Positions 24,023-62,634 are shown, counted from the first letter of the whole stretch. The stretch is DNA of 62,888 nucleotides, filler included, from Sanchytrium tribonematis (GCA_018985235.1; 15 parts of 15 records of this genome joined end to end with filler, not necessarily neighbours in it); one strand, 5' to 3'. The notes: generated from the letters alone by a model not told the origin. A program made the numbers and translations.

Positions 24023-25104
24023 CTATTTATTTTCGTGATACCTTTCTTTAGGCAAAGTGTTTTTCTTTGACCAAAATATTCCACAAGCCTAAATAAGTTA
24101 AATATTACATTACAAAGAGTCCGAGGGCCGTTTGGACCTCTTCTCATGACTGGAGTAAAAATCCCACTCAGCAAACACCAATTACATTTCCAGCTTTGAC
24201 GAAACTCACTTACTTGTTCTCTTCCATCAAAGTTGAACACTCGTGCAGATGCCCCAAAACCCCTGTGATGCTTTGGCGCCTTTGCCTCAACTTCGATTTT
24301 GTCCGCTTCGCTCAATAAGTGTAATGTTTCGTGGTCAACCCTAACTTCATCATATATCATATTTGGAGGTTTTTCTAAAATCTGATTTGGATCTATTTTG
24401 AAGCTTTTAACTGCATAAGACGGCTGATAGTAATCAAACTTTCTTCGTCGTCGTCTGGAAGTTTTGGATAGACGCTTTTCAATTTGGCTTTCATCCAAAT
24501 AAGTAAAAATTGGAAATTTGCTATTAGATTGTGGTATATGATTAACAACTTCATCGGCTTGTAATCCATAATAAATTTGGTCACAAATCGTAAATGCGAT
24601 CAGATTTTCCCAAGCAGTTCCTAATCCTAATTCTGTGCAATAAATATAGGTAAAATCTTCTACGGTGACTCCACTGTCTAAATCCCAATAAAATTCGTCG
24701 TATATATGTAGTGAAAAATGATTTTGGTCAATTATTATGGCAATATACCGCGATTCTTCGACTTCTTTTGTATTCATGAGAGGGTGATCGGTAGGGTCTG
24801 AAATTTGTTGCACCATTTGTGTAATGCAGGTATTTCCCAACGTTCCAACATTAATTCCGTAATCATTTAGAGTCAAATCAATAAGATATTTGGGTGTATA
24901 TAGGTTCTCGAAAGCATTCCATAAAAACTGTTCTCTAATTTTCATGCCATCATAGTCTACACTTAAGTTGATTGGAATCAAAAGACAATTAGGCGATGGT
25001 TCGGTATAAAAATAAATATGGTTTGTTCCTGTTGCCTTCGGAAGTTGTACAAGTCGCTTTTTGGTCTCTTCAATGTCACTCAGTGATTCTATGGACTCGC
25101 TCAT
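24023..25104 (-). CDS. SFH1: SNF5-domain RSC subunit Sfh1 with C-terminal GATA zinc finger (2 exons: 25104-24109, 24088-24023)
   Basis: LIPI...D...IREQFLWN and DEFYWDL SNF5 repeats. The GATA finger CNWC...RRGPNGPRTLCN|ACG is completed only after removing a 20-nt intron. Confidence 0.85.
24089..24108 (-). other. 20-nt spliceosomal intron GTAATATTTAACTTATTTAG
   Basis: Removal restores LCNACG of the GATA finger. Confidence 0.92.
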
Positions 25105-25196
25105 TACTTCCCCTGTTTGGGGCAGTTGGATTTGCCAAATTATGTGATTTGTTGGCAAATCTTGGCATTTAAAGTAACTGATGGGAATGTTAACCC

Positions 25197-25772
25197 ATGC
25201 GGGTAACTGACGGTGTTCAGTATTTTTTGTCGGCTTATTGTATCTTCGTCACCATTGGGTCAATTTGCTTATTTGCGAATGAATTATATATATTTTATTT
25301 GACGAATATCACATTTATAAGCTTGACCATTTACATGACTTTATACAGAGTTCTACCCCCAAGACTTGCTAATTACATGTATTCGACCTTACTTACTTTG
25401 CATATAATTGTTCCAGGCGTTTTTTGGCTATTTTTAAGAGACACTATTAACATGAATTCGCGTCTATCGCTTGCTTGGAATGTAATGCTACACGGAACAG
25501 ATTTAATTGTTATTTTTATCCATTTTTTAATTACAGACAACGAATTACCAATGATTTCAATATTATGGAATTTAGGTACATCAATGCTATACCTTAGCTG
25601 GGCTTGGTTTTGCTATTTTTTGACGCATAAATTTGTTTATCCGTTTGTGGATTTGAATAATTCATTGGCCAAATTTTTGTATCCGGGATTATTTATTCTA
25701 GTTGGACTTATATCGCTCATGTGGTGTAAAATCCATAAGTGGAGAAGAAATAGGAATAAATTGCCAAAGTAA
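25197..25772 (+). CDS. FAR-17a/AIG1-like multi-pass membrane protein
   Basis: FYLTN, V.GVFW, LHG and VYPF motifs with 6 TM segments. Confidence 0.75.
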   Translation: MRVTDGVQYFLSAYCIFVTIGSICLFANELYIFYLTNITFISLTIYMTLYRVLPPRLANYMYSTLLTLHIIVPGVFWLFLRDTINMNSRLSLAWNVMLHGTDLIVIFIHFLITDNELPMISILWNLGTSMLYLSWAWFCYFLTHKFVYPFVDLNNSLAKFLYPGLFILVGLISLMWCKIHKWRRNRNKLPK

Positions 25773-26459
25773 TTATATTTTATTTTCGTAATGCTTGAGC
25801 AGGTATTGCATACAAGCGCGATGCTCCGCCATTGGGATGCTATTACCAATTCCTATTCCAAGAAGTTGCGTATCATTAAATGCCCCAATTTCAAATACTG
25901 GTGAATGACTGAATCGCCCACTTTCTTTAAGTATTTTGAATTCTACCTTAATGTTAAGCAGTTCTTGGACAAGTCTCCTAGGTTCGTCAATTTTAAGAAT
26001 TTCATCTAAATTCAATGAAGTGTTACTGAGTAGCATTTCCTTAACAAATTTTTGTGCCTCGGCAAAACCATGACTATGGGAAAAGTAACCAACAAGAGCA
26101 AAAACAATATTTTTAAGTCGGCCATCTAATATCTTCTCAGAGTTGAACTCATCATATACCCGATGGATTCCCAACTGTTTTGCAAACTTCCCCAATACTT
26201 TTGAATTCATGTACGCCTGAACTCCGTTTTCGATCATGTTTTCTGGTGCCCGTGGCCACTTTTCCATCACAAATTGATACACTATGGTGTGCATCGCGCT
26301 TTTACCAAAACCTTTGAACGCCGAATTGGTTGCAGATGTGTCATGGAATGGGCCAACAGGATTTGTAGCCGGATTTGCAAATATTTTAGAAGCCTCTTCT
26401 TTCGGCAACCGTAGCCTTGCTAGCAGTGCTGCGACTTCGCCTGTTTGTACACCTCTCAT
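25773..26459 (-). CDS. MRPL44: Mitoribosomal protein mL44 (RNase III-like + dsRBD)
   Basis: ESGRFSHSPVF.IG and G.G.SI.MAEHRA. Confidence 0.85.
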   Translation of the reverse strand: MRGVQTGEVAALLARLRLPKEEASKIFANPATNPVGPFHDTSATNSAFKGFGKSAMHTIVYQFVMEKWPRAPENMIENGVQAYMNSKVLGKFAKQLGIHRVYDEFNSEKILDGRLKNIVFALVGYFSHSHGFAEAQKFVKEMLLSNTSLNLDEILKIDEPRRLVQELLNIKVEFKILKESGRFSHSPVFEIGAFNDTQLLGIGIGNSIPMAEHRACMQYLLKHYENKI

Positions 26460-26499
26460 CTCCTAGTTTTACAGGATTCGATCTTAAAACATTTGCCAA

Positions 26500-26865
26500 A
26501 TGAAGCCAAGTGGAAGAATATTTACCGTCGATAGTGGATCTGATAAATTTGTAGAGCTTTACTATTCGACTTTCGATACAATTCGACAAGGCCTTATCAA
26601 TTATTACGCAAATAATGCTACTTTAGTCTGGAACGGCAATTGCATTAATTTTCAAAATTTAAATGAATTTTTTGGAAGCACTCCAGCAAGCTTTCATACA
26701 ATTGAATCATATGATGCTCATCCCATTTCTGCAGACACATTTCTGGTCCATGTTAACGGATCAGTTCAATATGGAGAGCTCGTAAAATCATTTTCGCAGA
26801 CTTTCCTATTAAAGCAAGATTCAAAAACAAAAATAATATCAGATCATTTTCGATTTCTCAACTAA
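26500..26865 (+). CDS. NXT1: NTF2-related export protein Nxt1
   Basis: FV.LYY.T.D..R, ATLVWNGN, V.GSV.YG, FSQTF, SD.FR. Confidence 0.85.
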   Translation: MKPSGRIFTVDSGSDKFVELYYSTFDTIRQGLINYYANNATLVWNGNCINFQNLNEFFGSTPASFHTIESYDAHPISADTFLVHVNGSVQYGELVKSFSQTFLLKQDSKTKIISDHFRFLN

Positions 26866-26920
26866 TAAGTATTGAATTTTAATTTAGAAAATTATTACTA
26901 TATCATCAACATTTATTTAT

Positions 26921-28447
26921 TCAAAATAGTACCGGGTAGTTAAATTCTTGCCTATCTTCTTCATGCTTTGAATTTAACCAACTAGAAACGCGCTCATTAG
27001 TGCGGGATCTCATGCGATAAATTTTTAAAGAAGATTCTGATTGCTGTGAGAAAAACCTTTTATGCTGATCTTGATACAAATTACTTTTCTCTATATGGTA
27101 CTTCAAATCTGGATTCTCTTGCCTGACAATTGAAATTGCACTAAGTTTCTTTGAAGAAGATTTTGATTTCCGTGAGAGCGAGTGCCACACTGATTTAATA
27201 AAACTTCCTTTATCGGATCTATCTAATGATTTGAACGCTTCCAAATCTTTAATATTTTGGGAAACTTCAAGCTGGCCTTTTATTGATTTGATTCTTTGCT
27301 TTAGTGCCACAACACTATCAGTTTCGTATTTGATAACTGCAAGATTTAAATTGTTTGTGTAATCCGTATCCAATTTATCTGAACTATCGTAAATTGGTTT
27401 AATGATTCCTGTAGCACCTCTTAAAGCATCGTTGCCATATGCTTGTGTAAATTTTTTGAATTCAATTTCATGATTGTCGAGGATATTATTAATATCCTTG
27501 ATGGTTGCAAGTATGTCATTGGATTTCAAAGAGTTTAAAGAATAATCATTTTCCAATTCCCACAGACCTTTTCGACATTCGACAAGGTTGTCACTTAAAT
27601 CAGTTATCAGTAATTCGACTGACGAAGCCTGTTCCGGTAGATCTGACTCTTTCATTTTAGGTACTTTCAATGATTCGCAGCGTATTCTTTCAATGGATTT
27701 CAATCGCGGCTTTGCTTTAGCTACATAGCTTTTCAAAAACTCTGGAAGATCTAACGGTAGTAAAAACTCGCTCAAATTAAACTCTGAGCACAAAACTATA
27801 GGCCCTTCAAAAGCTTGGAGTGGAGGTACATTATTCCAAATCATTTGGAGCTTCCCTGGGGCAGGAATTTTAGAGAGTAAAGTTGCCTTCCAAGATTCAA
27901 CTCTATAGAGTAATCCATGATGTTCTAATTTTTTCAAGATTCGAATACTTTTTTCAGACATCTGAAAAGCTATGCAATACCTCGAGTTTTGTACTTTTTC
28001 ATTGTCTTCATTTTCGGCTGAGTAGAAATTTGCCATGGAATGATAATAAAACGATTTTGCCAATGACAAACTCTTAACATCCAGCGGAAGTTCCTTAAAT
28101 GTTTTTGATATTTTACTGAATCCATCTGATATTGATACGCTCATTTTAGCCATCAAAGCTTTGGAAAACCTTCCATCTTTTTTGGCTTGTAAAAAATATA
28201 ATTCACTCGCTTCAAGTAAAGTAATTTCTTTTAAAATTAAATAAATGACATCTAATTCGCTAGACTCTAGATGAAGAAAGACTCCTGCGGCTTGAGCAAG
28301 CAAATTAGACGCTTCCTTGAACGATTTTCCGCATTCTAAACCATTAAATGCATTTTCACGTAAGTAGAATGCATATAGCACCAAGTCTTTTACGTTTGGA
28401 ACTAAATTGATAAGTTCTTGAGAAGCAAAGAAGACATCTCGTTTCAT
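26921..28447 (-). CDS. Divergent BRO1-domain protein (Alix/Rim20-like)
   Basis: EA..L.QAAGVF, LLEASEL....A, MAKM and AKS.YY.S.A.FY resemble the BRO1 core. The N-terminal part of BRO1 appears missing. Confidence 0.6.
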   Translation of the reverse strand: MKRDVFFASQELINLVPNVKDLVLYAFYLRENAFNGLECGKSFKEASNLLAQAAGVFLHLESSELDVIYLILKEITLLEASELYFLQAKKDGRFSKALMAKMSVSISDGFSKISKTFKELPLDVKSLSLAKSFYYHSMANFYSAENEDNEKVQNSRYCIAFQMSEKSIRILKKLEHHGLLYRVESWKATLLSKIPAPGKLQMIWNNVPPLQAFEGPIVLCSEFNLSEFLLPLDLPEFLKSYVAKAKPRLKSIERIRCESLKVPKMKESDLPEQASSVELLITDLSDNLVECRKGLWELENDYSLNSLKSNDILATIKDINNILDNHEIEFKKFTQAYGNDALRGATGIIKPIYDSSDKLDTDYTNNLNLAVIKYETDSVVALKQRIKSIKGQLEVSQNIKDLEAFKSLDRSDKGSFIKSVWHSLSRKSKSSSKKLSAISIVRQENPDLKYHIEKSNLYQDQHKRFFSQQSESSLKIYRMRSRTNERVSSWLNSKHEEDRQEFNYPVLF

Positions 28448-28485
28448 CAAGCCCAAAATACGGCCTAGAAATTTTTTGAATGAGA

Positions 28486-30823
28486 CTATAATTTACTTAA
28501 TGCTTCAACATATTGACGCTGATACTCTTTAAGTAATTTCAAAGTTGCTGGGTTTGGTTTGCTACATACGTTTCGAATCATTTCGTAGAACACCTGTTGG
28601 ATTTTTAAAAGATTTACACTCGAGTCGATATAAATTAAATTCTGCTCGTCTTCATACAAATCTTTCGCCATTTCTCGAGCATCCTCTACAAGTTCTACAG
28701 GTAATGCTGCATTTTTGGCTAAATCAATTCCATAAAATCGACTCTTGGATGCACCCTCTTGAATTTCATAATAATATTGAATTCCATTTTGCCGAACTTC
28801 TGAATGAAAATGAATTTGAATAATTCCAGGATATTGTTCAAGTGGCTCGATTAATTCTTCTATATGGGTAACCATGAACGTAATTGCTTGAGAATTTAAC
28901 AGTCTTTCGATGGTAGCAAGCGATATGGCAATTGCATCTATATGACAAGTCCCTCTTGCCAGTTCGTCTATTATAACAAGAGATTTAGGAGTCACTTTGT
29001 CAAAAATATATGAAAGCGACCTCATTTCCTTCACAAAAGTACTTGCATTTGTGGCCAAATCATCGTCATTTCCAATTCTTGTTAAAATGCTTTCAAATAT
29101 TGGAAAATACATCAATTCACAAGGAACATAACATCCCATTTGACACATCACAACTAAAATCGAAATCTGTTTAGTGTAAACTGATTTACCAGACATATTC
29201 GCACCAGATATAACTTGGATTCTGGATTCGCGACTTGCATAACAATCATTGGGATGTGATTTCATTTTCATTGAAATCCTGGTAGGATGGTGGCCTTGTT
29301 TGAAGGCAAGAACTTCAGAAAATTGCGGTCTGACAGTTTCGTGTACAGAGGAATACTTTGAAAGTGAGTATATAACATCAATTGACGCGATTTTGTCACT
29401 TATCGTATACCATAGCTCCATACTTTCTCTCAAAAAATTTATAAGATCTCTCAAAACTCTAGGTAAGTAGTAAATACATCTCAGATCGAATATCAACTTC
29501 ACAAAGGTTTTCTGTTATCCTTTCATTTAATTTCATCAAGTCCATTGTGGTGAAAGTAATTTTTTTCCCTTTTTTCTTTCGCTCAATAAATTGTTCATTT
29601 AGTTCGTGTTCTCTTTCTTTAAAAGCTGAAAAACGATACCCTTTTCTACCTTCAAATACGATTTGGTACTCAATTCCAGTCTCTTCCGAGTAAGAGGCAC
29701 ACAAGTCATACACATCATCTACAGTTTCTTTATACATTTGTCTTGCCACATCTAACATCCCATCAATCTCAGGCTTAATCGCAAAAACCTTTTGATTTAA
29801 AAGCCCTCTTTTATTATTTTCAAACACCATTTCATCTGATATGATTGCATCTAGCCTTAAAAAGATTCTATCCACCAATTCTTCTGAAATGGAGTCTAAC
29901 AACGGCGATAATAGAAATTTTTCAGAATTGGCCATTTTCATCAGCGAAATTAAAGAGTTACAAATTTTTTTAAAATCAAAGCACATTGACACATTTTGAT
30001 TCAACTGTCCGTACTTGTTTTTTAAAGCAATTTGATTTTTTACGAGAAACAATATCAACTTATCAATATCACCAAGGGATACTAAATAATCTCTGATAGA
30101 TTTCATGATGTCCTGATTATCAATCAGATATTGCACACAATTTTGACGACTTTCAATCAAAGATTCACTGGTACTAGGTTGTAGGATATTGGTTCTCAAT
30201 TTTCTGCTTCCCATTTTAGTACAGCAATAATTAAGAGCGTTGTAAAGGCTCCCGGTATTTTTCATGCCAGCCTGATTTTGAACCAGTTCTAAATATTTTG
30301 CGGTTGTATGATCAATCATCATTGTATCCTCTACGGCGCAAACTTTGAAATTTAAGCTATTTAAAGCAAACATTTCAGTACTGCCAGTAAGATATTTAAA
30401 AAGAGCACCAACACAACTTAAGGAAAAGAAAAGATCTTTTGTAAGACTTCTTATATTTGCCTTTTGAGAAAGTAAAGCGAAATTTTCAATCATGTGTTTT
30501 CCGTGCTGGTCATTAAAATATTTTCTATCGATTGGAATAAGATCCGCAGAGGTGTATTCGTTCAGGGTTTTCATCAAATGTTCACTCATGTGAATATTTG
30601 GAAATAGAATCACATCAGGATCAATTACCATGAGTCTTGTAAGAAGCAGCTCATAAGTTTTAGCATCTGAGAATTCGCTTAATTGAATTTCGCAAGATGA
30701 AGTATCGCATGCAGCTACCCCAATTTGTGGAACATGTCCTCTTGATTCTGATATTACTGCATAAATGTTTGCTTGCTTCCCAGAAGTAGTTTTTGAGATT
30801 GTGCTTACATTAGCAAGTGACAT
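28486..30823 (-). CDS. MSH4: Meiotic MutS homolog 4 (2 exons: 30823-29478, 29458-28486)
   Basis: ISESRG..IG, LELV.N, G.R.LR.NILQP, LDVAR, GANMSGKS, NASTF..EM, DELARGT. Halves joined by a 19-nt intron. Confidence 0.92.
29459..29477 (-). other. 19-nt spliceosomal intron GTATTTACTACTTACCTAG
   Basis: Joins the two MSH4 ORFs in frame (IRSE-I-VLRDL). Confidence 0.92.
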
Positions 30824-30865
30824 TTGTAGTTTCAAAACTTTAAAGACCGTAAAAGTGACAAATAA

Positions 30866-31868
30866 ATGTCAAATGTTATACTAAATCTTAACATTTTCGA
30901 AATTAGGAGAGTGCTCAGACCTTTGCCAATGAAACAAGAAAATTTGATCGAAGCGACAGAGTTTCTAAAATCCTTTGATAATCCTACATTATACAAAACA
31001 AGCGACCAAATTGAAAATATTGAGAATATTTTTTATGACCAACAATCACAGTGTGACTCTCTTAAGCGACTTTTAGATGAAATACCGAGATTTCCTTCTA
31101 AAAGTTTGCAGCAGGAAAAACAGCGTCGATGTACGGAGCTTCAAAAGGAATTACTAGTTAAAGAAGAGTCTAAGGATTCTTTGCGCGAAAGCTTGCAAAC
31201 TGAAATCGAAGCAGTGGTAGACATGATTGAGAAGTTACGACATCTACTGTCTCGGATTCAAGAAAAATCAGCCAAATTAGACGCTGTTCGACGATCTTTA
31301 GACGAGAAGTTACAGGAGGCTCAATCTTCATTTGACAAACGCATTACAGAACAACAGCAATTTCAAGAAAATATTTTGGAAAGAAGAAAAGTCTTGGATG
31401 GTCTCGAAAACAAAGAGACAGAAATTAAGGAGCTTCTTGACAAGTTACAGTCTGAATTAAAATTGAAAGAGCAAGAAATAGCATCGTACGAAGAAAGTAA
31501 GCTCAGTTTGAAAATCAAAATCGAAGAACAACAAGCCTATTTAATTGATAGAGATTCGAAGATTGATGAAGTTTACCAAGAACAATTTACGAAGACAAAT
31601 TTCCTTAAAGAAATATTTAACGAATCAGACATGAAGACTCAAGTTAAATTGAAAAGAAAGACACTTTTTAAAGAGTTTGAGCAGCTTGGGTAATTCTAAC
31701 TAATTAAGATGGAAAATTAGTGAAAGTGGAGATCAAATCTACCAATTTGAAAAGGAAGGTAAATCTGCAACTATAAGTACAGACGTATTTTTCCCTTATA
31801 CCAAAAGTTGTACTGTAAATGGGCATGAAATCGGGTCAAGTTTACTTCAAAGTCTTCAAAATTTATAA
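30866..31868 (+). CDS. Coiled-coil protein, possibly Spc7/KNL1 C-terminal-like (2 exons: 30866-31689, 31709-31868)
   Basis: Long heptad region. Splicing gives FEQLGWKIS plus a beta-rich tail. Family assignment is weak. Confidence 0.6.
31690..31708 (+). other. 19-nt spliceosomal intron GTAATTCTAACTAATTAAG (AAG acceptor)
   Basis: Removes the stop and opens a further 160-nt exon that fills the gap to the next gene. Confidence 0.8.
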
Positions 31869-31877
31869 ATTTATTAT

Positions 31878-32201
31878 TTAGTTTAAGAAATATTCTGCTA
31901 GTAATCCCTGTCCACAGTTTGTCCAAGCTAGAAATCGATTCAATTCGTCATCTTCGGAAGTTTGGGCTTCAGAAATACCTACTTCTGCGTCACTTACATT
32001 TTGCTTAGCAAATGGCTCTGACTTTCTAATCAAAGTCTCAATAGAAGAATCATCAGATTTGACTGTCAAAATATCTTCAGGGTTTGCTTCTGCAATATAC
32101 ACTGCGTCCAATGGTAAAACTACGGGCACGTAGTCCCCAAATTCATCTCTTTTAACTTTTAGCCCAGAACTTAAAAAAATTACTAAAAATAAACTTAACA
32201 T
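31878..32201 (-). CDS. Small orphan secreted protein
   Basis: 107 aa, hydrophobic leader MLSLFLVIFLSSG followed by a KR site. Confidence 0.55.
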   Translation of the reverse strand: MLSLFLVIFLSSGLKVKRDEFGDYVPVVLPLDAVYIAEANPEDILTVKSDDSSIETLIRKSEPFAKQNVSDAEVGISEAQTSEDDELNRFLAWTNCGQGLLAEYFLN

Positions 32202-32294
32202 CGATGGCTTGAAAATCTCAACCCGAAGTTTTAAAATTGGATGTAGATGCTCTTGAATCGCGAGTCAATACTATTCAAGAAAAGGAGGTAATAT

Positions 32295-34027
32295 ATGATA
32301 CCTGAAATAATTGAGAAATTCTGCAATAATTTACTATTTGATGAAGCGCTGATTTATGCAGAATTATTATACAGCCAAAATAATTCTGTAGATAATTTGG
32401 AGGTATTGGCGAAAGTGTTATATAACATGCAAAGGTATGAATGTGCATTTGAATTAATTCAAAAAGAATTGAAGCATAAAAAGTTAACGGATAAAACACT
32501 CACTATATATGGCTTTTGTTCGATATATATCAGTCCTGAAAAAGGTTTGAAAGCGATCAAGTCTTACCTGATTAAAAATGAAGGTTCAGAATATTTGCAC
32601 ATAATATACGCTCGATTAAATAGACTTAATGGAGATGTCACCAATAGCAAGAGACACTTTGAAAAGGCTATTGAGCTAAATCCGTTGCTTTTGAATGCAT
32701 ATCGAGAAGCAATGAAACTTGGAAGTACTATGGATCACTCATTTCCTATAAAGATGAATCAATCATCTGACGAACCACTCGAAGAAGAACACGGGGATCC
32801 AGGAATCGTAACTAGAGCTCATCAATCAAATCTTGAGTCAAATTTAATGATAACAAAAAATAATCTTAAAATTTCGACATCATTGAAGCGGAAATCTTCG
32901 GACATTTCATCATTTAAACAAAATCATCCAAAGAAAAAACCCAAATCCTCACCTCCACAATTTGAAATTAACGAGGAAGCGCAAGATCACATCAAGTGTG
33001 AAATGGCTGTTTTTAAATGTATCTGTCAAAGAGATTTTCAAGCGGCTTTGAAAATTTTGAGAGAGTTTGACTCTTTGAACAAGTTTAACTCTTTTATATC
33101 CATTTTGAGAATTATTTGTCAACATGAGCTTAATTTACCAAAATCGGAAACGTTGTTTTCCATTTCAGTACATGTTGAAAAATATGAGCTTCATCTCGAA
33201 GGTCTGGAATATCTTCTTGCTATATTATGGATGTATCAAGATAGTGAGAGGCTTTCGAAGCTAAAATCGCAGTTGAAGAAGAGGTTCCCGAATTCTTTTC
33301 AGTATTATTTATGTAAAGGTTGTTCAAATTCCTTAGAGGGCGAGACAGAGGAAGCTATAAAAGCTTTGACAATGGCAACAAATCTAGATGAGTCGGGATT
33401 TGCTGCAAGTTTATCAGGATGGGTGCTCCTACCAGATGAAAAATTCGACCTTGCTATGCAGCTCTTTAATATCGCCAAAAAAAGAAACTCCACAGACGCT
33501 CGCGCACTTACAGGGTTAGGCTGTGTATATTTGAGAACCAACAATGTCCATAATGCATTAATTGCTCTGCAAGACTCCGAGCGACTTAAAAATAATTCAG
33601 AAACAAACAAGCTGTTATTATCCGAGGCCTTAAGAAAATCCGGCAAACTTGTTGAAGCTTATGAAGTCATAAATGGAGCGTTGTCTTTATTTCCAAAAGA
33701 GCGTACTTTGATTAATGAAAAAATAGTTTTATGCCTGAAAATGAATCAATATACTGTATTTTTATTTTAACACAGGAAGCGGCCAAAGAACTTGAGTCCC
33801 TCAAATCAATAGGGCGTCAGCATCCTTCGGTCAAAATTCTATCAGCGCAGCTTGCTTTACTTTCTGGAAATATCGGCGAATCTCACGGACAATATATGGA
33901 GGTAATTGCTGATGATATTGCCATTATAAATCAAATGCAGATGGGATTAGAAGAAATTTTTTACCCCCAAGATACCCAACATGACTTCAGCGCATTTGAT
34001 GAGGTCAAAATTAGGCCAATTGAATAA
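32295..34027 (+). CDS. CDC27: APC/C TPR subunit Cdc27-like (2 exons: 32295-33755, 33776-34027)
   Basis: ALIYAELL N-terminus, A.ELNP, LEG.EY...LW, A..GLG.VY, and EAAKELE.LK after splicing. Confidence 0.75.
33756..33775 (+). other. 20-nt spliceosomal intron GTATTTTTATTTTAACACAG
   Basis: Joins MNQYT to EAAKELESLK in frame. Confidence 0.9.
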
Positions 34028-34067
34028 AATTGTTCCTTCAAAGGATCAAACAAATTGTACTATTTTA

Positions 34068-36746: not shown

Positions 36747-37157
36747 GAAGTCTTTGTTCTTTCGTCAATTATACTATCTAATTCCCTTTTTTCTTGTGTC
36801 AAAGCACACGAGTAACAAAATAAATGAAGACAATAATCACCTACATAAACATTTTATACCTAAATATTCGTCTTCGTGTATAAAAAATCGCCCTCTCACG
36901 ATAACTCGCTGAGCTCCACTTAATAAAAAATGCTTCAGCATAGGAATGGTAACAATATATAACATTATTGAGTTAAAGTAACTTTGATCAGGGTCTAACA
37001 TTTCCCTTAGATCAGCATAAACCACACAGGGACAGAAACAAGCTCTGCAGAATGTAAATGGCTTTTGCCAGAAATTCCACATAGGAAATTTCCAGCCTCT
37101 TTCCTGAATCGGCGTCCAGCCTAAATCAGTATCAATTTCTTCTTTTTGATAAGCCAT
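36743..37157 (-). CDS. PLAC8/cornifelin-family Cys-rich protein (2 exons: 37157-36860, 36840-36743)
   Basis: CFCPCV in exon 1. DYCLHLFCYSCALTQEKREL in exon 2 after splicing. Confidence 0.88.
36841..36859 (-). other. 19-nt spliceosomal intron GTATAAAATGTTTATGTAG
   Basis: Removal restores the PLAC8 C-terminal D.C..H.FC..CAL.QE motif. Confidence 0.92.
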
Positions 37158-37197
37158 TTATAAATCGATGTTTTGAAATTGCGACGTATAAATTTAT

Positions 37198-37840
37198 TTA
37201 CATTTTAAATTCATATTTTATTGGCTGCATATAATGTGTACTGCTATATCTTACTTTCCAAAGATCCTCAATTATTCATTTATACCTTTTCTCTAATTGT
37301 GATACTCGGAAATCGATAAACCTCGAATTCTGGATATTTCTCGAAACATTTTAAATCTAATCCATTAACACAATTATTGCTTTCATTTTGAATCGGATTA
37401 CCTGATATAAACCATTTTTCTAATTCAGTTGCTTTTTCATTTTCATAATTTGCGCTCATAGATTCTGGCTCAAAATTAGTCTTATCTGTCTGGGAAATGT
37501 CCCAAAGTGAATCATGAAATTTATGGTAGAGGCATGGAGTGATGTTTCCGCATAATTGGTCAGAATAATTAACCCAATTTGGACTTGTCTTTAAACTGAT
37601 ATTGGATATTCCATGGTCTACACTAGATTCTGTAGAATTAATACAGTATGCTTTAAGGAAAGAAAAACCGTGTTGTAGTGAATCATAGATGGCACAAACT
37701 GCATTTTTACAACTCACTTGAATTTGGTTCTGTGTATACTCACTTAATTCAGGTAAATGTACTTCATGGCTCTTTATTTCTGGTTTCTCTAGAGTTTTAA
37801 AATTTTGCTGCAATTTGGAAATAAAGTCATAGTCAAACAT
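37198..37840 (-). CDS. Hypothetical protein (2 exons: 37840-37286, 37266-37198)
   Basis: Long ORF extended by a consensus-matching 19-nt intron. No family recognised. Confidence 0.55.
37267..37285 (-). other. 19-nt candidate intron GTATAAATGAATAATTGAG (GAG acceptor)
   Basis: AAG|GTA donor, T-8/A-6 consensus, opens a 23-codon terminal exon. No homology support. Confidence 0.6.
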
Positions 37841-37974
37841 GGCCAAAATATTTTTACTTCGTGACGACCCTTAACTACATTTTGAATTATTTTTCATATC
37901 ACTTATTTATTACATCAGAAAATTAATCAATATCACAATTAAAAATTCTCCTTGAATCACATCGTTTAAAATTT

Positions 37975-39112
37975 ATGTCTAACAATAATCATTCTGATGT
38001 TGATTCTAACTGTCTTATGATCGAGCAACAAGACAACAAAGCTTCTAGGAAACTGATTTATGCCTCAATTTTATGCTTTCTTTTCTTTTTGGCGGAATTG
38101 CTTGGTGGAATATTCGCCAATTCACTCGCATTAATTTCAGATTCTTTCCATATGTTATCCGATGTATCAGGATTTGCTATTTCATTGGCAAGTATTTGGA
38201 TTGCAAGTAAACCAAAAACATCGAGGCATTCTTTTGGATTTCACCGCGCTGAAATAATTGGTGCTGTATTGTCTGTATTATTAATTTGGGTTTTGACGGG
38301 AATTCTTCTCAGTGAAGCAGTGGAGCGTATAAAAAATCCAGTCGAGATAAATGCTCCAATTATGCTGCTAACAAGTATTGCTGGACTTGTTGTCAATATT
38401 GTTGTTCTATTTGTACTTGGTGGTCATCATCACGCTGGACATTCTCACCATCACCCAAATATCGAAGAACTCGGTGAGGAAATCGAATCTGGTAGAAACA
38501 GAATGACAAACTCCGTTGCAGGTAGCAATTCTGCTTCTCCATCTCCAACTAGGATTACGCTGGTGGAACCGGACGTGCGGGTCACTGAAGAAAGACACGA
38601 TAACATTAATATCAGAGCAGCCATAATCCACGCACTTGGTGACGCCTTGTTTAGTGTAGGTGTGATTATTGCCTCATTAATAATTTATTTTAAACCAGAA
38701 TACCACATCGTTGATCCCATCTCTACCATATTTTTTAGTATCATTGTTTTATTTACTACTCTCCGAATTTTAAAAGACAGCTTATTTGTTTTAATGGAGG
38801 CATCACCAAGCAATATCGATGTCGACAGACTCAAGTTTGAACTAAGTGGAATTGCTGGAGTGAATGATATTCATTGTTTCCATGTTTGGCTACTATCTAT
38901 TGGAAGGGTAATTTTGGTTTATTTAGACAGCCCTATCAGTTCATTTGGCAACTGACCCATCAGAAATTAGAGATTTAAAAGATCTGCATAGAATATTGGC
39001 CGACGCAGAGCATATCGCTTATAACATATTTAATATCGACCATTGTACAATTCAAATTGAAATTCCAAGAGACGGTGTAAAATCTGGATGCAGAACACCA
39101 TCCAACCAATAA
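37975..39112 (+). CDS. Zinc transporter, ZnT2/SLC30-like CDF (2 exons: 37975-38907, 38927-39112)
   Basis: SLAL.SD.FHMLSD, FG.HRAE, His-rich loop, NINIRAA.IH.LGD, HVW. ALSVHL and HCTIQIE appear after splicing. Confidence 0.93.
38908..38926 (+). other. 19-nt spliceosomal intron GTAATTTTGGTTTATTTAG
   Basis: Removal restores the ZnT cytosolic domain (SVH...HxTIQxE). Confidence 0.93.
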
Positions 39113-39113
39113 A

Positions 39114-39980: not shown

Positions 39981-40022
39981 TTTCTCAAGTTGCAAGGAGA
40001 TTAAATTTGTCACACAATTTTA

Positions 40023-40859: not shown

Positions 40860-40994
40860 TTAGAAAATATTTATTAAACTTCAACCATTTCTCGNNNNNN
40901 NNNNNNNNNNNNNNNNNNNNNNNNNNNNNNNNNNNNNNTTAATTAATTAANNNNNNNNNNNNNNNNNNNNNNNNNNNNNNNNNNNNNNNNNNNN

Positions 40995-47718: not shown

Positions 47719-48257
47719 TTTTGGACGCCACTTTGATTTGGGGGGATTTGTGAGAAAATAGATGAATCGAGTCATTTGATTGGTGGAAAGATGATTTTAA
47801 AAGTGGCACCTGGTGGAATCTAGAGACGGGTGACTATGTGAGTCATGATGATACTAGATGATGGACATAAATATAAAATACGCTTATTAACATGTGAATA
47901 ACATTAAAATGGGTTGTTATTGTCCATCAAAAATCGATTTATTGTTTCATGGCGCGAAAACGTCATGATGAGTCATTTCTTCGTCATTCTATTTCAGGGA
48001 ATCGCAATCAATAAGCGATGTAATAATGAGTAAGGATGATGACGAGTGAGCTCATGTCATAGAATGACAGAATACGTATCAAAATCAATGTGTTTAGTGC
48101 TGATTTGTTAATCTGTTCAAACATTGCTTTAATAGAAAGTTGAGAGGCACAAATTTATTATGACCCACGCATATAATTGAAGAAACATTAGATCTTTAAA
48201 TGGCATTGATTAATTGGTCAACAACCCTTTCAAATCCCCTTGCAAAACCCTTTTAAA

Positions 48258-51027: not shown

Positions 51028-51115
51028 CTCGTTATAAGATTCCAGAACGAAATTGGTAAATCACCAAATACAGGTCATCGCTATCTTGAAAGCCAAACAA
51101 AGTGGACAAAAACAT
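51028..51115. repeat. 88-bp exact direct repeat, copy 1 (cut by contig start)
   Basis: Identical to 51780-51867. Confidence 0.92.
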
Positions 51116-51779
51116 AGATCAGATGGTGCTCAAATAGATTAACAAGTAAAATCTTCGCACTGCTTTTGTTTCCCATTAGTGTCAGCATGAATGGAACTGA
51201 GACTCAATAGTTACTAAATAGGTGCTTGATGAATATACTGCAGTCAGATCTAGCACACCGGGTTTTCAACATCAATAAGTGACTACGCAATAGTGGTTCT
51301 ACATCTAGGTACTATTTCTTACTGCATGACCGCCGAGAACCATATCCCATGTGGGAATAAATCGTAATCATTCCAATCTTATTTATATACGACGTAAATC
51401 TCAACATCCTGAGGTAAGTACACATTAGCGCTCTACATCTCGTCCAGCTTTCTTCTTCAACTGTCGTATAGACTCTTACATTCAATATGACGTTTATCCT
51501 CACCATGTGATAATAATTCATTCCAGTCTTATATGCAAGAAACAATCTACCAATGTTGTGTGTTTACTTGATGCATCTTTCATATGTACCACTTGTTCGA
51601 TATTCTTCTTTAAACAATCTTTTGGAAGTCATGGTTGAATCGTGCTCTTCCAAAATTGAACAAAGGTGAAAGTCAATGGAGTGTGAATGGACGCTGTACT
51701 AGGTGGTGTATACATGGCTGAGCATCTTATTGTACCAATTACATGGCAAGACTAGGATATTTTAATATATCACCACCGT

Positions 51780-51867
51780 CTCGTTATAAGATTCCAGAAC
51801 GAAATTGGTAAATCACCAAATACAGGTCATCGCTATCTTGAAAGCCAAACAAAGTGGACAAAAACAT
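51780..51867. repeat. 88-bp exact direct repeat, copy 2
   Basis: CTCGTTATAAGATTCC...GTGGACAAAAACAT. Confidence 0.92.
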
Positions 51868-52541: not shown

Positions 52542-52698
52542 GAAATAAGTTGCAGAATTCACTAGGAATTCTCACAAATAGTTCGAGAAATCAAGGTAAA
52601 TCTTGCAAGGAGAAAATTTACATAATTTACTTCAATTTCTCATAGATTGATTGAGAATTTCCTCAATATCTTGTACATGTACTTGAGTAATCGAGTAG

Positions 52699-52931
52699 TG
52701 CAATTGACGAATATGCACTTGACAAATATGCAATTGAAATATATGCACTTGACGAATATGCACTTGACAAATATGCACTTGAAATATATGCACTTGACAA
52801 ATATGCACTTGAAATATATGCAATTGACGAATATGCACTTGACAAATATGCACTTGAAATATATGCACTTGAAATATATGCACTTGACGAATATGCACTT
52901 GAAATATATGCACTTGACAAATATGCACTTG
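52699..52931. repeat. 15-bp minisatellite ATATGCA(C/A)TTGA(CAA/AAT/CGA), about 15 copies, runs into contig end
   Basis: Tandem units read directly from the sequence. Confidence 0.95.
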
Positions 52932-57016: not shown

Positions 57017-58907
57017 GGAAGGATTCCGTATTGTTTAAAACAATGCTACTAGCTATAATCACACTAGATGCTTTGTAAAATACACGCGTCACAACTAAAT
57101 TAATAAAAATAACTTGATTTGGCATCTGTGGTTGCAATTTCCAATCTATCAGGTAAATAGGACAAGTAGTATTTCTTACACATGCTATAATTAGCAACAT
57201 ATGAGCTATTCAGCAAGGGATTAAAGGATAAATCACAATTTGTCAATAAAGTCGTATTTTGTAATTGAACATCTAAAATAGACGTATTTCCTAGTACTAA
57301 GTATGTTGGTTTTTGCAAAATGACCTTGTCGTTGAAATAATTGCCCTCGTTCACTGGATCCCCTAATACGACATCCTTCAAAGAAGCAGGAAATGCAGGT
57401 AATGGACCTGTTAGAAAATTCCCCTGAATTCGCAACTGTTGTAGATTGGGTGGTAAAGTAGGAAGTGGCCCTTTTAGATTACATCTAATAAGTTGAAGCA
57501 CTTTCAAACTGCTAGGAAGTGCTTTTAATGTTTGATTCAAGTTTACATATTTTAATACTAAAGTCTCTAACCCCTCTGAAAATATTGGCAGTGGACCTCC
57601 AATGGTTGAACCTTCAATGCTGATATATTTCACATGCCCTGGAATATAGTCTGGTATTCTTGCTGTTTGGTTATAATTGCCAAAAATGTAAAGCGAATTC
57701 AAAGTTGAAGGAATATCTGTAATTGAAAATGCAAATCCATCTACAGTTTGTAATAGATCCCCTCCATCTATACTTAATTCTGTCACATTTAATCCCGCAC
57801 AATTTACATAATAACTGGTGTCACAGCAATTCTCATCCCTTAATGAATCGCTTTGAATTCCCATTTTTTGAAACATTTTATCAACCAATTTGCATGCACC
57901 CAGTGATGTCGGAATAGAATACTTTTGAATATCGGGTTCGCATTTTGTTAAATTGACCAAATTGGCTATTGAAATATTGTTTAATGAAACATCACAAGAT
58001 CGAATTACGTTCAAATTTGTTGTCACAACTTTCTCAATTAAATTATTTCTCAAATTCAGTTCATTATAAGCTGAAGGACCAAAATTTGACGCGTCTATAA
58101 TCCCTTTAATCTTATTATTTTTCAAATATAATTGGGTCCAAGTATTTCCCTTTAATTCATTTTCCACACTATCAAATTCATTGTCAGCAGCTGAAAACAT
58201 TTGTAGCTGAATTAAATTGGGAATGGTGCCATTAAGCTGATTCGTATCTAGGGCTAAATTGACTAGAGTATTGGGTAATTTGCCAGATATGGGGCCAGTA
58301 AAATAATTGTTGGAAAGGTACAGATTTTGTAAATTTGTAAAGCCTGACAAGTCTGGAAAGTTCCCTTTGATATCATTATAGCTTAAATCCAAGTCATGTA
58401 GCGTATCCGGCAATAATGTGGTGTTGATGGTGCCATTAAGTTTCAAATAGCGCAATCTAATGTTTGTGATTCTGTTGTTGTTACACACAGAGTAATACAT
58501 AAGAGAGTCACAGCAATTCTTTTTTTTAAATAAATAGTTGAAGCTATCCGGGGCAGTTAGATGCATATTTAACTGATTTAAAAATAAATAAAAATTTGGG
58601 CAATCGATGGAAGGTGGAGATTTGAATGATAAATTACATTTCGAGGTCAAAGCAATATCCGCCTGCATGTCTGGATCAAAATAATTATAGATTGTGTTGC
58701 AATTTTTTATCCCATTATTGTTTGGCACAAACAACCAATCAAATTCATTGTCAGAAAGATACAAAGTGGTTATATTGGGAGAAGAAATAGTTAAATTTCC
58801 AGAAAAGCTATTGGATGATAGATCTAGGGTCTGGACACTCTTAAAATCTAAAGGAATTGCTCCCGTGAAACTACAATATGACAAATCTACAATTTCTACA
58901 TTGTCTG
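57017..58907 (-). CDS. Multi-module LRR receptor-like protein, both ends cut (intron 57095-57113)
   Basis: Repeated modules of Cys cap (DC...NCC...C) + LRRs + CDLS.N. Frame continues to the contig end after a 19-nt intron. Confidence 0.85.
57095..57113 (-). other. 19-nt spliceosomal intron GTTATTTTTATTAATTTAG
   Basis: Removes the stop and joins to the open S-rich stalk frame. Fits the T-8/A-6 consensus. Confidence 0.72.
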
Positions 58908-60151: not shown

Positions 60152-60180
60152 GTAAATACAATGCACTTTTATCAACTACT

Positions 60181-60898
60181 TTATTGATTTTTAAATTTCT
60201 TTTTATAAGTCTCTACATCCTTATCTAAAGCTCGTTTTTGAGTGTCGGCCTTTTCCATGAACGCGTCTAATTTTTTAAGGTCCTTTGAATCTTTGGTTGT
60301 ATTTCTTATTTGTTTCCCTACTTGTTGCATTACTGTCAACACAACGCTTAATTGATTAGGTAACCAAGTAACAATTGGGCTGCCACCAGTAGCTAATTTA
60401 GTTTAAGATACCAACAGGATGATTTGAATATTTAATAATATATTCTTTTGTGAAATTCCAATGTCTATGTCGAAAATCTCGTACTTGATCCAATAAACTC
60501 AGGTATTTCAAGCTACTTTGGACATCTTTTAGAGCGTATGCCTTTACTCCTAGTTTTTTACTTTCATTTTCCACAAAAGTCAACCATTCAGTGTGGGCAT
60601 GGGGACGATAAGTTCGAAAGTCTTTCAAAATTTGCGTCAATGGATTGTCTGGCATCACATTGGTGATTTCTAATAGATTGTCACACGTTGGGATAATAGA
60701 ATCATTAGCACCTGATTCACCACGATAAGCCTGAGGATCTTTCGATACTCCTTCATAAATCACGCCGTTTGGAAAAATTTCCTCTTGATTTTTGATTCCC
60801 ATGATGAAAGTTCTAAATCTGTTATAATCTTGCGGTTTACTGGCTGCCCACATGGTTTCCATAACGATATTAATTTGATTCATGGTTTTGGTTAAATT
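60181..60898 (-). CDS. Indoleamine 2,3-dioxygenase (fungal IDO-gamma type), 3' part (intron 60393-60411)
   Basis: FRTFI.GI, RGESGANDS, DFR.YRP, FR.RHW.FTKEYI. HPVATGGSPIVTWLPNQL appears after splicing. Confidence 0.92.
60393..60411 (-). other. 19-nt spliceosomal intron GTATCTTAAACTAAATTAG
   Basis: Removal restores the conserved ATGGSP motif. Confidence 0.93.
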
Positions 60899-61022
60899 NN
60901 NNNNNNNNNNNNNNNNNNNNNNNNNNNNNNNNNNNNNNNNNNTTAATTAATTAANNNNNNNNNNNNNNNNNNNNNNNNNNNNNNNNNNNNNNNNNNNNTG
61001 GCTTGAGTAGCTTGTCACGTAA

Positions 61023-62634
61023 ATGAAGAAACACCTTTTGTTAAATTTGTTTTTGACCATTTTACACGCTACAGATTGTCAAGGCGCCATAAATTTCTTT
61101 ACTAGTTTGAATATGCAAACAACAGATGCATCAGAATACAATGCTATCCCTATAAATTGTTGTAATTACACTAGTGTTTCTAGTAAAATTACTATTACAT
61201 GTACAGCAACAACGATTTCTATGATCCAATTGCAATATATGAATATAAATGGAGTTATTAAGGGTGATTTAATGCCACAAAGTATTTCAGAATTGAATAT
61301 TCTAAATTGTTATAATTTAATTGGTAATATCCCAAATAATTTACCAAATTCATTGAAAATAATGCGATTAAATGATCTTGGACTTACTGGTAGTATTCCA
61401 TCCACACTTCCTACCAGTTTAATTATATTCAGTGCCCAGCACAATGCTTTGAGTGGTGCCATTCCCAATTTTCCACCCACCGTCCATCAAATCTTTTTGA
61501 ATGTGAATGCTTTGACTGGTTCTATTCCAACCACATGGCCAAGTGGATTGACAGTCTTTCAAGCTAATTATAATCAATTAAATGGTACATTAGACTATTT
61601 GCCTGATTCAGTCACCAATATTGATTTGGGAAATAATTTGTTTACTGGTAATTGTAACCATTTGCCGAGTCAATTAAAAACAATAGATATGAGCTCAAAT
61701 AAGATGTCTGGTCAATTAATGGAGAATTGGCCTGTTAATTTGGATTCATTTTCAATTTATCACAACCAATTTAGTGGAAAAATACCAACTCAATTATTGG
61801 AACAAGTGCATACTTTGACGATTTCTTCAAATTTATTCACTGGCTGTATAAGTTCAATTTTAATATGTTCTTATTGTTATTTAGGAGGAAATCAATTTGA
61901 AGGCTCCATTGTGTTTCAAAAACCCAATTATTTGGATATCTCATCTAATTTATTGACGGATATAAATGTGGTGGATATATCTGTATTAGGATTGTGTTTT
62001 TTAAATAATAATCCCATGTTAGGACTCATTGGTGAGCCGTATCTCTCTAAATGTCAAATTAACGGGATTTATAGTAAATCTGGAACTACAACAAAATGCT
62101 ATTTAAGCACTAAATCATTGGCTACCAGTACATCTAGTACCCAGCTATCGATTGCAAGTACTCCAAAAACTTCTATTTTAAGCAGTTCTGTTATTTTTCA
62201 GACAACTCCAACTCATTCAATAATCTTGAGTGAATCTTCGTTTACAGTCTTTGATTCATCAACTTTTTCCACCGATAAAGATTCAGAAACAGAATCTTAT
62301 ACATCTAGTACGAGTGAAATGGAATCATTAGAGATCAGATCTGTCCAGACACGTATTTAAATCTTATGTAGGACCATTTCATGACACAAAAACTACAATG
62401 TCACAAATTACAAACAGAACTATCCAATATACGAGCCTTTCAACCACTTTAAAAGCAACCACTTCATTATTTGTTGAGAAATGGCATGGGGCCATGGGCG
62501 CATTTGAATTGAAATTTGAAATCACACAAGTTTGTAAAATTGGATTTGATTTATTGATAATTGGATTCATTATGGCTAAAATGCCAATTAGATTCAAAAC
62601 TAGAACACAGAATCGGGTAATGAGTCATTACTAG
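61023..62634 (+). CDS. LRR receptor-like surface protein: signal, Cys cap, LRRs, S/T stalk, C-terminal TM (2 exons: 61023-62352, 62372-62634)
   Basis: NALSGAIP/NALTGSIP repeats. A 19-nt intron joins the 445-aa and 78-aa ORFs in frame. Confidence 0.88.
62353..62371 (+). other. 19-nt spliceosomal intron GTATTTAAATCTTATGTAG
   Basis: Links the stalk to the TM-containing exon. Confidence 0.85.

What the first reader, a model, noticed from the sequence alone, without database searches (positions are those of the whole stretch)
24089..62371. A fungal tiny-intron system: every detectable intron is 19-20 nt
Seen: ten GT-AG segments at 24089-24108, 29459-29477, 31690-31708, 33756-33775, 36841-36859, 37267-37285, 38908-38926, 57095-57113, 60393-60411 and 62353-62371. 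Eight are 19 nt and two are 20 nt. Each repairs a broken ORF. Four restore short conserved motifs exactly (GATA LCNACG, PLAC8 CALxQE, ZnT HxTIQxE, IDO ATGGSP), and two more join the halves of MSH4 and CDC27. No longer intron is needed anywhere in the window. Known: introns this small occur in chlorarachniophyte nucleomorphs and some ciliates, and are far below normal fungal sizes. Inference: an independent origin of a miniaturised splicing system in a fungus. I am not aware of it being described but cannot check the literature. Gene finders with default minimum intron sizes would truncate these genes.
Basis: partly seen in the sequence, partly recalled or inferred. Interest (0 to 1): 0.93.

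Follow-up and report, generated by a model that had tools for sequence, protein, structure and literature searches.

The report
Tiny 19-20-base introns in sanchytrid fungi
Ten genes of this sanchytrid fungus are each interrupted by a 19-20-base GT...AG segment that is likely a spliceosomal intron, two of these genes break at the same codon in related species, and if RNA confirms the splicing these would be the shortest fungal introns I could find in print and would explain why public protein lists for the group cut such genes short.

Summary
All ten segments are AT-rich GT...AG stretches of 19 nt (8) or 20 nt (2) on the gene strand. Three junctions (SFH1-GATA, MSH4, ZnT) are fixed exactly by homologues with intron length left free. 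Three more are supported by domain continuity or gap filling. Four rest on consensus and gene packing alone. New here: all ten carry T at -8 and A at -6 from the 3' end, a branch-point-like motif at the Stentor position (permutation P = 6.5e-5). The organism groups with Amoeboradix gromovi (Sanchytriomycota), next to Blastocladiomycota. Six of seven close orthologues of ZnT and SFH1 break at the same codon; their read-through tails imply introns of 19, 19, 20 and probably 21 nt. Deep DNA contigs bridge seven segments without gaps. No RNA run was listed, so splicing itself is not shown, and ten introns cannot fix the genome-wide size range. Ultra-short introns are known in ciliates, Mikrocytos, nucleomorphs, myxozoans and microsporidia (about 25 nt). 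I found no description in sanchytrids, whose published proteomes were ORF-called. The scan had no sanchytrid note; it has notes on 26-32-nt Rozella introns. Verdict: a new variant of a known kind.

The parts
24089..24108 (-). 20-nt phase-0 intron in the SFH1/SNF5-GATA gene (24023-25104); splits the GATA zinc finger
   Evidence: Relative P0394 (73%) is uninterrupted and matches the joined product to the last residue. The length-free spliced aligner returns exactly this segment. A. gromovi P0395 and P0396 break at the same codon with inferred 20- and 19-nt introns.
29459..29477 (-). 19-nt phase-2 intron in MSH4 (28486-30823)
   Evidence: Best profile score of 66 open alternatives (807.5 vs 796.6), gapless against 10 homologues, recovered by the length-free aligner with two different homologues. 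Relative P0122 (54%) is uninterrupted here.
31690..31708 (+). 19-nt phase-2 intron in an unidentified coiled-coil gene (30866-31868)
   Evidence: Consensus match with CTAAT. Adds 52-53 codons and shrinks the gap to the next gene from 184 to 9 nt. No homologue tested; Pfam, NCBIfam and Atlas gave nothing for exon 2.
33756..33775 (+). 20-nt phase-0 intron in CDC27/APC3 (32295-34027)
   Evidence: Exon 1 matches human CDC27 up to residue 469 of 487. Exon 2 is only weakly TPR-like (E 0.2). Gap to the next ATG falls from 297 to 40 nt.
36841..36859 (-). 19-nt phase-1 intron in a PLAC8-family gene (36743-37157)
   Evidence: Pfam PLAC8 positions 1-79 lie upstream and 83-101 downstream, in different frames.
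37267..37285 (-). 19-nt phase-0 candidate intron in an unidentified gene (37198-37843); ends in GAG; weakest of the ten
   Evidence: T-8 and A-6 present; adds 22 codons; gap 122 to 40 nt. No homologue.
38908..38926 (+). 19-nt phase-0 intron in a ZnT/SLC30 zinc transporter gene (37975-39112)
   Evidence: Best of 72 alternatives (431.6 vs 422.7; unspliced 386.9). 4 of 4 close orthologues, including A. gromovi P0276, break at the same codon. Tails imply 19 nt (P0277) and probably 21 nt (P0275). Paralogues P0278 and P0279 are uninterrupted.
57095..57113 (-). 19-nt phase-1 candidate intron in an LRR gene on a 1.9-kb piece; starts GTT
   Evidence: T-8 and A-6 present; the frame continues to the end of the piece. 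DNA run X1 covers it with no indel listed, but no listed contig bridges it by 31 letters on both sides.
60393..60411 (-). 19-nt phase-1 intron in an indoleamine 2,3-dioxygenase gene (60181-60898, 5'-partial)
   Evidence: Pfam IDO match stops at model position 362 of 412, three residues before the donor. Removal adds 70 codons and closes a 246-nt gap to 29 nt. The downstream motif is recalled, not tested.
62353..62371 (+). 19-nt phase-1 candidate intron in an LRR / Ser-Thr-rich gene (61023-62634)
   Evidence: Consensus match; adds 87 codons with a hydrophobic stretch (19-residue hydropathy 1.77). No homologue tested.
26869..26887 (+). Additional 19-nt consensus match 3 nt after the stop of an NTF2/NXT1 gene; possible 3'-UTR intron, unverified
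   Evidence: One of 20 consensus-like 19/20-mers in the window, 10 of which are the proposed introns.
1050..4169 (+). SF3B3/Rse1 gene (U2 snRNP subunit), 1039 aa, on another piece of the window
   Evidence: E 1.6e-103 to human SF3B3 (1217 aa); Pfam RSE1 propellers. That this piece belongs to the same organism was not tested.

Best explanation
The ten 19-20-nt GT...AG segments, each with T at -8 and A at -6, are likely U2-type spliceosomal introns that have shrunk to a nearly fixed length in the sanchytrid lineage. Shown: the ends, lengths and fixed T-8/A-6; exact restoration of three proteins; the same break in related species; the lineage. Inferred mechanism: U1/U6 would read a minimal GTA(w) donor. 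U2 would pair with the Y-T-W-A-Y motif and bulge the A, which sits at intron nucleotide 14 or 15, giving a 14-15-nt lariat loop. The AG would be chosen by a fixed distance of five bases after the branch A, with no polypyrimidine tract. Donor, branch site and acceptor abut, so the intron is predicted to be recognised as one unit (intron definition), which would hold its length at about 19-21 nt. The genome is intron-poor (10 in about 55 genes, one per gene). Single introns are absent in some relatives (P0394, P0122), which fits precise loss from an ancestor that had them, though gain is not excluded.
For: Ends, lengths and motif. Length-free homologue alignment returns exactly 29459-29477, 24089-24108 and 38908-38926, while the same aligner finds 28 introns of 30-190 nt (median 55, none at or below 21) in 10 ELP3 loci of other eukaryotes. 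Profile scoring prefers the 19-nt cut over 65 and 71 alternatives. 6 of 7 close ZnT/SFH1 orthologues lose similarity at the same codon and continue with Val (GTN); the seventh (P0394) equals the joined product. Tails fit 20 nt (14 of 15 exon residues), 19 nt (7 of 7), 19 nt (8 of 12) against at most 4 for other lengths. A at -6 is forced by the tail in 3 of 4 inferred introns and possible in the fourth. DNA contigs at depth 220-315 bridge seven segments with 0 gaps. 9 of 9 allelic differences in MSH4 exon 1 are synonymous. Removal brings six gaps from 90-297 nt to -4 to 40 nt, like the window's usual 1-66 nt. SF3B3 lies in the window; PRP8, BRR2, SF3B1 and a U2AF subunit are annotated for A. 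gromovi.
Against: Four of ten junctions have no homologue support; one ends in GAG and one starts GTT. The consensus is not sufficient: 10 further 19/20-mers match it, one (1773-1791) in frame inside SF3B3 coding sequence. Homology-free tests did not single the introns out: 4 of 38 predictions were exact, and the proposed cut ranked first in 1 of 10 genes. Relatives' intron lengths come from back-translating ORF tails, not from their DNA, and the 21-nt case has no testable exon residues. The run X1 may be the source of the window, so it is not independent. No U2 snRNA is in the window, so branch pairing is untested. All 9 placeable introns lie in the 3' half of the gene, opposite to the 5' bias of microsporidia; this is unexplained and may reflect missed 5' introns.
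Confidence: 0.9

Rival explanations
1. The introns are real but are only the short class of a broader distribution; longer or in-frame introns exist elsewhere in the genome and were not sampled or not seen.
For: Only ten introns from 63 kb were seen; ten of ten allows up to about 26% longer ones (95% bound, my calculation). One relative's intron appears to be 21 nt. E. cuniculi has a 76-nt intron beside its ~25-nt ones (PMC6349667). Detection favours frame-breaking introns.
Against: Genes are packed 1-66 nt apart, leaving little room for unseen exons. A 12-80-nt motif scan found only two longer alternatives sharing an end with a 19/20-mer, plus one unsupported 41-mer, at real gene ends. All four lengths inferred from relatives are 19-21.
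Confidence: 0.2
2. They are spliceosomal introns but inefficiently spliced, so retained forms are common and the 3' position limits the damage or gives a regulated truncated product. This is compatible with the main explanation.
For: Short microsporidian introns are spliced at under 20-25% (PMC6349667, PMC4435813) and Mikrocytos at 37-63% (PMC10245619). 9 of 9 placeable introns are in the 3' half (0.58-0.94 of the coding length).
Against: Retention would cut the MSH4 ATPase domain, the GATA finger and the ZnT dimerisation domain. B. natans nucleomorph 18-21-nt introns are mostly over 80% spliced (PMC6009652).
Confidence: 0.25
3. The segments are disabling insertions in pseudogenes, or assembly or amplification artefacts.
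For: The window is a fragmented assembly and carries at least one unexplained frameshift (about 22270).
Against: The same break occurs in six orthologues that are 66-77% identical to each other. Contigs bridge seven segments without gaps. 9 of 9 MSH4 variants are synonymous. All ten share GT..AG with T-8/A-6.
Confidence: 0.02
4. They are removed by a non-spliceosomal route (Ire1/tRNA-ligase type, which removes ~20-nt introns from fungal hacA; recalled) or bypassed by the ribosome.
For: Size resembles the recalled hacA intron; a 14-15-nt lariat is sterically tight for a standard spliceosome.
Against: GT..AG ends, a branch-like A, AT-rich content, all three phases, unrelated genes, and retained spliceosome genes. 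Stem-loops at the ends were not tested.
Confidence: 0.03

Closest known systems
Stentor coeruleus 15/16-nt introns (PMC9505925, passages)
   Same: Two adjacent lengths, GUA donor, AU-rich, branch A at nucleotide 10 of 15 or 11 of 16, which is -6 from the end as here.
   Different: Ciliate; 4 nt shorter; 8,806 introns; no strong branch consensus, whereas here T-8 is also fixed.
Mikrocytos mackini 16/17-nt introns (PMC10245619, passages)
   Same: Parasite, narrow two-length distribution, few introns (224 in 179 genes), conserved sequence.
   Different: Rhizarian; strongly reduced spliceosome shown there, not tested here; no introns in transporter or metabolic genes there, while ZnT and IDO carry them here.
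Bigelowiella natans nucleomorph 18-21-nt introns (PMC6009652, passages)
   Same: Same size range and GT-AG ends.
   Different: No discernible branch A and 3.1 introns per gene there; here a fixed branch-like motif and about 0.2 per gene, in a main nucleus.
Microsporidian short introns (E. cuniculi ~25 nt) and Rozella (~30 nt) (PMC6349667, PMC2483917, passages)
   Same: Fungal-lineage parasites, intron-poor or short-intron genomes, CTAAY-type branch site close to the AG.
   Different: Longer and more variable; microsporidian ones are 5'-biased and mostly in ribosomal protein genes. Here they are 3'-biased, RPL26 and RPS2 lack introns, and the lineage groups with Blastocladiomycota, so the shrinkage is independent.
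Myxobolid myxozoan and dicyemid ultra-short introns (PMC13644364, parts 1-2 of 3)
   Same: Parasites, donor reduced to GTa, no polypyrimidine tract.
   Different: Animals; median 22-27 nt with a broader spread; branch A's shift with intron length rather than staying at -6.

Membership tests
U2-type (major) spliceosomal introns | GT donor and AG acceptor | tested here: met
   10 of 10; the base before AG is T 7, C 1, A 1, G 1.
U2-type (major) spliceosomal introns | Branch-point adenosine in a YTRAY-like motif near the 3' end | tested here: met
   T-8 and A-6 in 10 of 10, permutation P 6.5e-5; A-6 forced in 3 of 4 relatives' inferred introns. Sequence motif only; branching not shown.
U2-type (major) spliceosomal introns | Precise removal restores the homologous protein | tested here: met
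   Exact for 3 of 10; partial support for 3; no homologue for 4.
U2-type (major) spliceosomal introns | Organism encodes the major spliceosome | tested here: inconclusive
   SF3B3 in the window on a piece not tied to the intron-bearing piece; PRP8, BRR2, SF3B1 and U2AF annotated in A. gromovi; no snRNA in the window.
U2-type (major) spliceosomal introns | Segment is absent from mature mRNA, via a lariat | not testable with these tools
   No RNA holder listed.
U12-type (minor) introns | Extended donor RTATCCTT and branch TCCTTAAC (recalled consensus) | tested here: not met
   Donors read GTA followed by A/T; none of the ten has either motif.
Ultra-short uniform introns of the Stentor/Mikrocytos kind | Nearly all introns of the genome within 2-3 nt of one length under about 22 nt | tested here: inconclusive
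   10 of 10 here and 4 of 4 inferred in relatives are 19-21 nt; the whole genome was not available.
Ultra-short uniform introns of the Stentor/Mikrocytos kind | Branch A at a fixed distance from the 3' end | tested here: met
   -6 in 10 of 10, as in Stentor.
Ultra-short uniform introns of the Stentor/Mikrocytos kind | Reduced or altered spliceosomal factors | not tested
   Only SF3B3 length was seen (1039 vs 1217 aa); SLU7 and SNU114 names were not found in a truncated annotation file, which is no evidence of loss.
Chlorarachniophyte nucleomorph introns | No discernible branch A; high density; nucleomorph genome | tested here: not met
   Branch-like motif present, density about 0.2 per gene, fungal nuclear genes.
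Microsporidian short introns | About 25 nt, 5'-biased, often in ribosomal protein genes, microsporidian lineage | tested here: not met
   19-20 nt, 3' half in 9 of 9, RPL26 and RPS2 uninterrupted, sanchytrid lineage.
Sanchytriomycota (host lineage) | Groups with Amoeboradix gromovi, next to Blastocladiomycota | tested here: met
   ELP3 quick tree: 100 for the four-row clade, 97 with Blastocladiomycota; ZnT and SFH1 on the intron-bearing piece have A. gromovi among their 3-4 closest hits. One gene tree, no bootstrap.

The most novel reading that the evidence does not exclude
The whole phylum Sanchytriomycota runs a length-ruled major spliceosome in which essentially all introns are 19-21 nt with the branch A locked at -6. 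These would be the shortest introns in any fungus, a further independent convergence on the Stentor geometry in a true fungal nucleus, hidden because the published genomes were annotated without introns. Introns would sit preferentially near gene 3' ends.
Probability: 0.6. Interest if true: 0.85.

Novelty: new variant of a known kind. Interest (0 to 1): 0.76.

Why it matters
The lower size limit for spliceosomal introns, and how a spliceosome handles a lariat of about 10-15 nt, are open questions studied in ciliates, Mikrocytos, nucleomorphs and myxozoans. A case in a fungal phylum next to Blastocladiomycota allows residue-level comparison of splicing factors with well-studied fungal spliceosomes, and shows convergence on the -6 branch position. 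In practice, public sanchytrid proteins are truncated wherever such an intron occurs (shown for the window's MSH4, ZnT and SFH1 and for two A. gromovi proteins). At about 0.2 introns per gene, on the order of a thousand or more genes per genome could be affected (extrapolation), which bears on published domain and gene-loss inferences for this phylum.

Tried and rejected
No whole genome is held, so no genome-wide length distribution. No RNA holder listed; this is no evidence on expression. A homology-free gene model with free intron length gave 38 predictions, 4 exact and many gene-fusing errors; its intron model was barely distinct from coding DNA and one training ORF was entered on the wrong strand. 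Codon-only scoring ranked the proposed cut first in 1 of 10 genes. Neither test is informative. The two longer 'introns' (69 and 99 nt) that the aligner placed in ZnT with distant homologues are in-frame and fall in a loop that close orthologues share at the same length, so I rejected them. The aligner control used 10 of the 80 ELP3 loci, chosen for long match spans. The metagenome scan gave one sanchytrid-like contig (L004, 2.6 kb), with no intron-bearing gene to read. Scans of GTDB with IDO and of viral contigs with SFH1 gave nothing useful. PDB searches with IDO, GATA and CDC27 second exons gave no significant hit. Atlas gave no usable hit for the 31710 exon and only weak, below-threshold hits for the 37286 protein. 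Rfam and ARAGORN found nothing. From memory, human MSH4 and CDC27 have introns at the equivalent codon and phase, which would make these ancient positions; a search for the MSH4 case found no paper, so this stays an untested recollection. The careful tree did not finish; the quick tree is reported.


Full report
Observation. The ten segments are present at the stated coordinates, on the strand of the interrupted gene, all GT..AG, eight of 19 nt and two of 20 nt. The window is 34% GC and is a concatenation of 15 pieces joined by N spacers: two of about 18.4 kb and thirteen of about 1.9 kb. Seven segments lie on piece 22548-40894, three on short pieces, and none on piece 1-18417. Seven contain an in-frame stop and three shift the frame; phases are 0 (4), 1 (4) and 2 (2), one per gene.

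They are in the DNA. One public DNA run (X1, possibly the source, so not independent) holds the stretch. Two of its contigs (depth 220 and 315) bridge the seven segments of the long piece with no gaps or joints. The piece with 57095 is covered with no indel listed, but no listed contig bridges it. Nine allelic differences in MSH4 exon 1 are all synonymous third-position changes, so that gene is under selection.

Aligned at the 3' end, all ten have T at -8 and A at -6 (consensus Y-T-W-A-Y-N-N-A-G), and nine start GTA. Shuffling the inner bases gives two or more invariant columns with P = 6.5e-5; 58 of 607 GT..AG 19/20-mers in the window have both letters. This looks like the CTRAY-type branch site, with the A at intron nucleotide 14 or 15. 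The consensus is not sufficient alone: 20 sites match a stricter version, 10 being the proposed introns, one lying 3 nt after the stop of an NXT1 gene (26869-26887, possible UTR intron), and one lying in frame within SF3B3 coding sequence.

Homologues fix three junctions. MSH4: the 19-nt cut scores best of 66 open alternatives and aligns without a gap to ten homologues. ZnT: best of 72. SFH1-GATA: an unnamed relative (P0394, 73%) is uninterrupted and matches the joined product to the last residue. A spliced aligner with free intron length (10 nt or more) returns exactly these three segments, while it finds 28 introns of 30-190 nt (median 55) in ten ELP3 loci of other eukaryotes. PLAC8 continues from Pfam position 79 to 83 across the segment, and the IDO match stops three residues before the donor. 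CDC27 exon 1 follows human CDC27 to residue 469 of 487, while exon 2 alone is only weakly TPR-like. For six genes, removal shrinks the gap to the neighbour from 90-297 nt to -4 to 40 nt, like other gaps in the long pieces. The segments at 31690, 37267, 57095 and 62353 have no homologue support; 37267 ends in GAG and is the weakest.

Lineage. The window's ELP3 is 88% identical to Amoeboradix gromovi and to an unnamed ENA protein, against 65-77% for the other listed hits. In a quick tree of 36 rows it forms a clade with these two and one metagenome contig (L004) at SH-aLRT 100, joined to Blastocladiomycota at 97. ZnT and SFH1, on the intron-rich piece, also have A. gromovi among their closest hits. 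The organism is therefore a sanchytrid.

The introns are shared across the lineage. All four close ZnT orthologues (67-71%) lose similarity at the same codon and continue with Val (GTN) and a short tail; two paralogues are uninterrupted. Two of three SFH1 orthologues do the same. Back-translating the tails gives 20 nt for A. gromovi SFH1 (14 of 15 next-exon residues; at most 4 for other lengths), 19 nt for P0396 (7 of 7), 19 nt for P0277 (8 of 12) and probably 21 nt for P0275 (no exon residues testable, but T-8, A-6 and TAG are all forced). P0274 and P0276 stop inside the intron; 19 and 20 nt are compatible, 18, 21 and 22 are not. These lengths are inferred from proteins, not read from DNA. 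P0394 and P0122 lack the break, so presence varies among relatives.

Mechanism. Shown: ends, lengths, motif, restoration, sharing. Inferred: removal by the major spliceosome, with a minimal GTA donor, U2 pairing at the Y-T-W-A-Y motif, a 14-15-nt lariat loop, and AG chosen at a fixed distance without a polypyrimidine tract. SF3B3 is in the window (E 1.6e-103; 1039 vs 1217 aa), on a piece not tied to the intron-bearing one. PRP8, BRR2, SF3B1 and a U2AF subunit are annotated for A. gromovi. No snRNA lies in the window, and no RNA holder was listed, so splicing, its efficiency and any spliceosome reduction are untested. Unexplained: all nine placeable introns lie at 0.58-0.94 of the coding length, opposite to the 5' bias of microsporidia; missed 5' introns could contribute, although a motif scan found no credible one.

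Comparison with what is known. Stentor has 15/16-nt introns with the branch A at nucleotide 10 or 11, that is -6 (PMC9505925, passages). Mikrocytos has 224 introns of 16/17 nt (PMC10245619, passages). The B. natans nucleomorph has 18-21-nt introns without a discernible branch A (PMC6009652, passages). Myxobolids have medians of 22-27 nt (PMC13644364, parts 1-2 of 3). In the fungal lineage, E. cuniculi introns are about 25 nt and two Rozella introns about 30 nt (PMC6349667, passages); median intron length was 29-197 nt in a set of single-cell genomes (PMC8042348, passages). Fixed branch-to-AG distances have evolved repeatedly in intron-poor lineages (PMC2483917, passages). Further passages were read in PMC4435813, PMC8476143, PMC10406608 and PMC10459994; none describes sanchytrid introns.

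Novelty. The sanchytrid genome paper predicted proteins from contigs with TransDecoder, and 'intron' occurs in its main text only in a reference title (PMC8371127, passages). Its supplements were searched, but one file is a scan and the annotation file is cut, so a remark there could be missed. Eight searches listed no paper on sanchytrid introns or on fungal introns of this size; the library lacks most subscription papers. The scan's own notes had nothing on this genome or on sanchytrids.

Verdict. Real feature; very likely spliceosomal introns (0.9); probably the dominant or only class in this phylum (0.6). The phenomenon is known elsewhere, so it is a new variant of a known kind, but apparently undescribed in true fungi and directly testable. 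Interest 0.76.

Noticed in passing
window 22250-22447 (+), gene from 20982: An LRR gene continues in another frame after about 22270; no GT..AG segment explains it. Probably a 1-2-nt assembly error near the end of a piece, or a pseudogene.
   Followed up: partly
window 41834-42904 (+): Harbinger-like DDE transposase (Pfam DDE_Tnp_4) with a frameshift near 42070-42110 that no intron explains.
   Followed up: partly
window 1773-1791 (+): A 19-mer matching the intron consensus lies in frame inside the SF3B3 coding sequence; splicing it would break a splicing-factor gene. Chance or a cryptic site.
   Followed up: no
window 26869-26887 (+): Consensus 19-mer 3 nt after the stop codon of an NTF2/NXT1 gene; possible 3'-UTR intron.
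   Followed up: partly
window 51028-51867: Two identical 88-nt direct repeats 752 nt apart flank a stretch with only broken ORFs; possibly a small mobile element or a local assembly duplication.
   Followed up: no
window 52654-52931: Tandem array with a 15-nt period running into the N spacer.
   Followed up: no
window 22650-23067, 29657-30050, 40026-40082: Run X1 shows two haplotypes at comparable depth in patches, suggesting heterozygosity or two strains.
   Followed up: partly
window 23346-23708 (-): A stand-alone UBR-box protein of about 115 residues, with no room for the rest of a Ubr1-type ligase.
   Followed up: no
window 47019-47796 (-): LOV/PAS-domain protein (Pfam PAS_9) resembling a White Collar-1 start, cut by the end of the piece; relevant to light sensing in this group (the WC-1 label is recalled).
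   Followed up: no
window 40995-41732, 57017-58907, 61023-62634, 62645-62888: Several related LRR genes, partly in tandem; X1 contigs are fragmented over one of them, as expected for an expanded family.
   Followed up: no
window 1-18417 versus 22548-40894: No intron is needed on the first 18.4-kb piece and seven on the second of equal size (two-sided binomial P about 0.016); clustering is unexplained.
   Followed up: no
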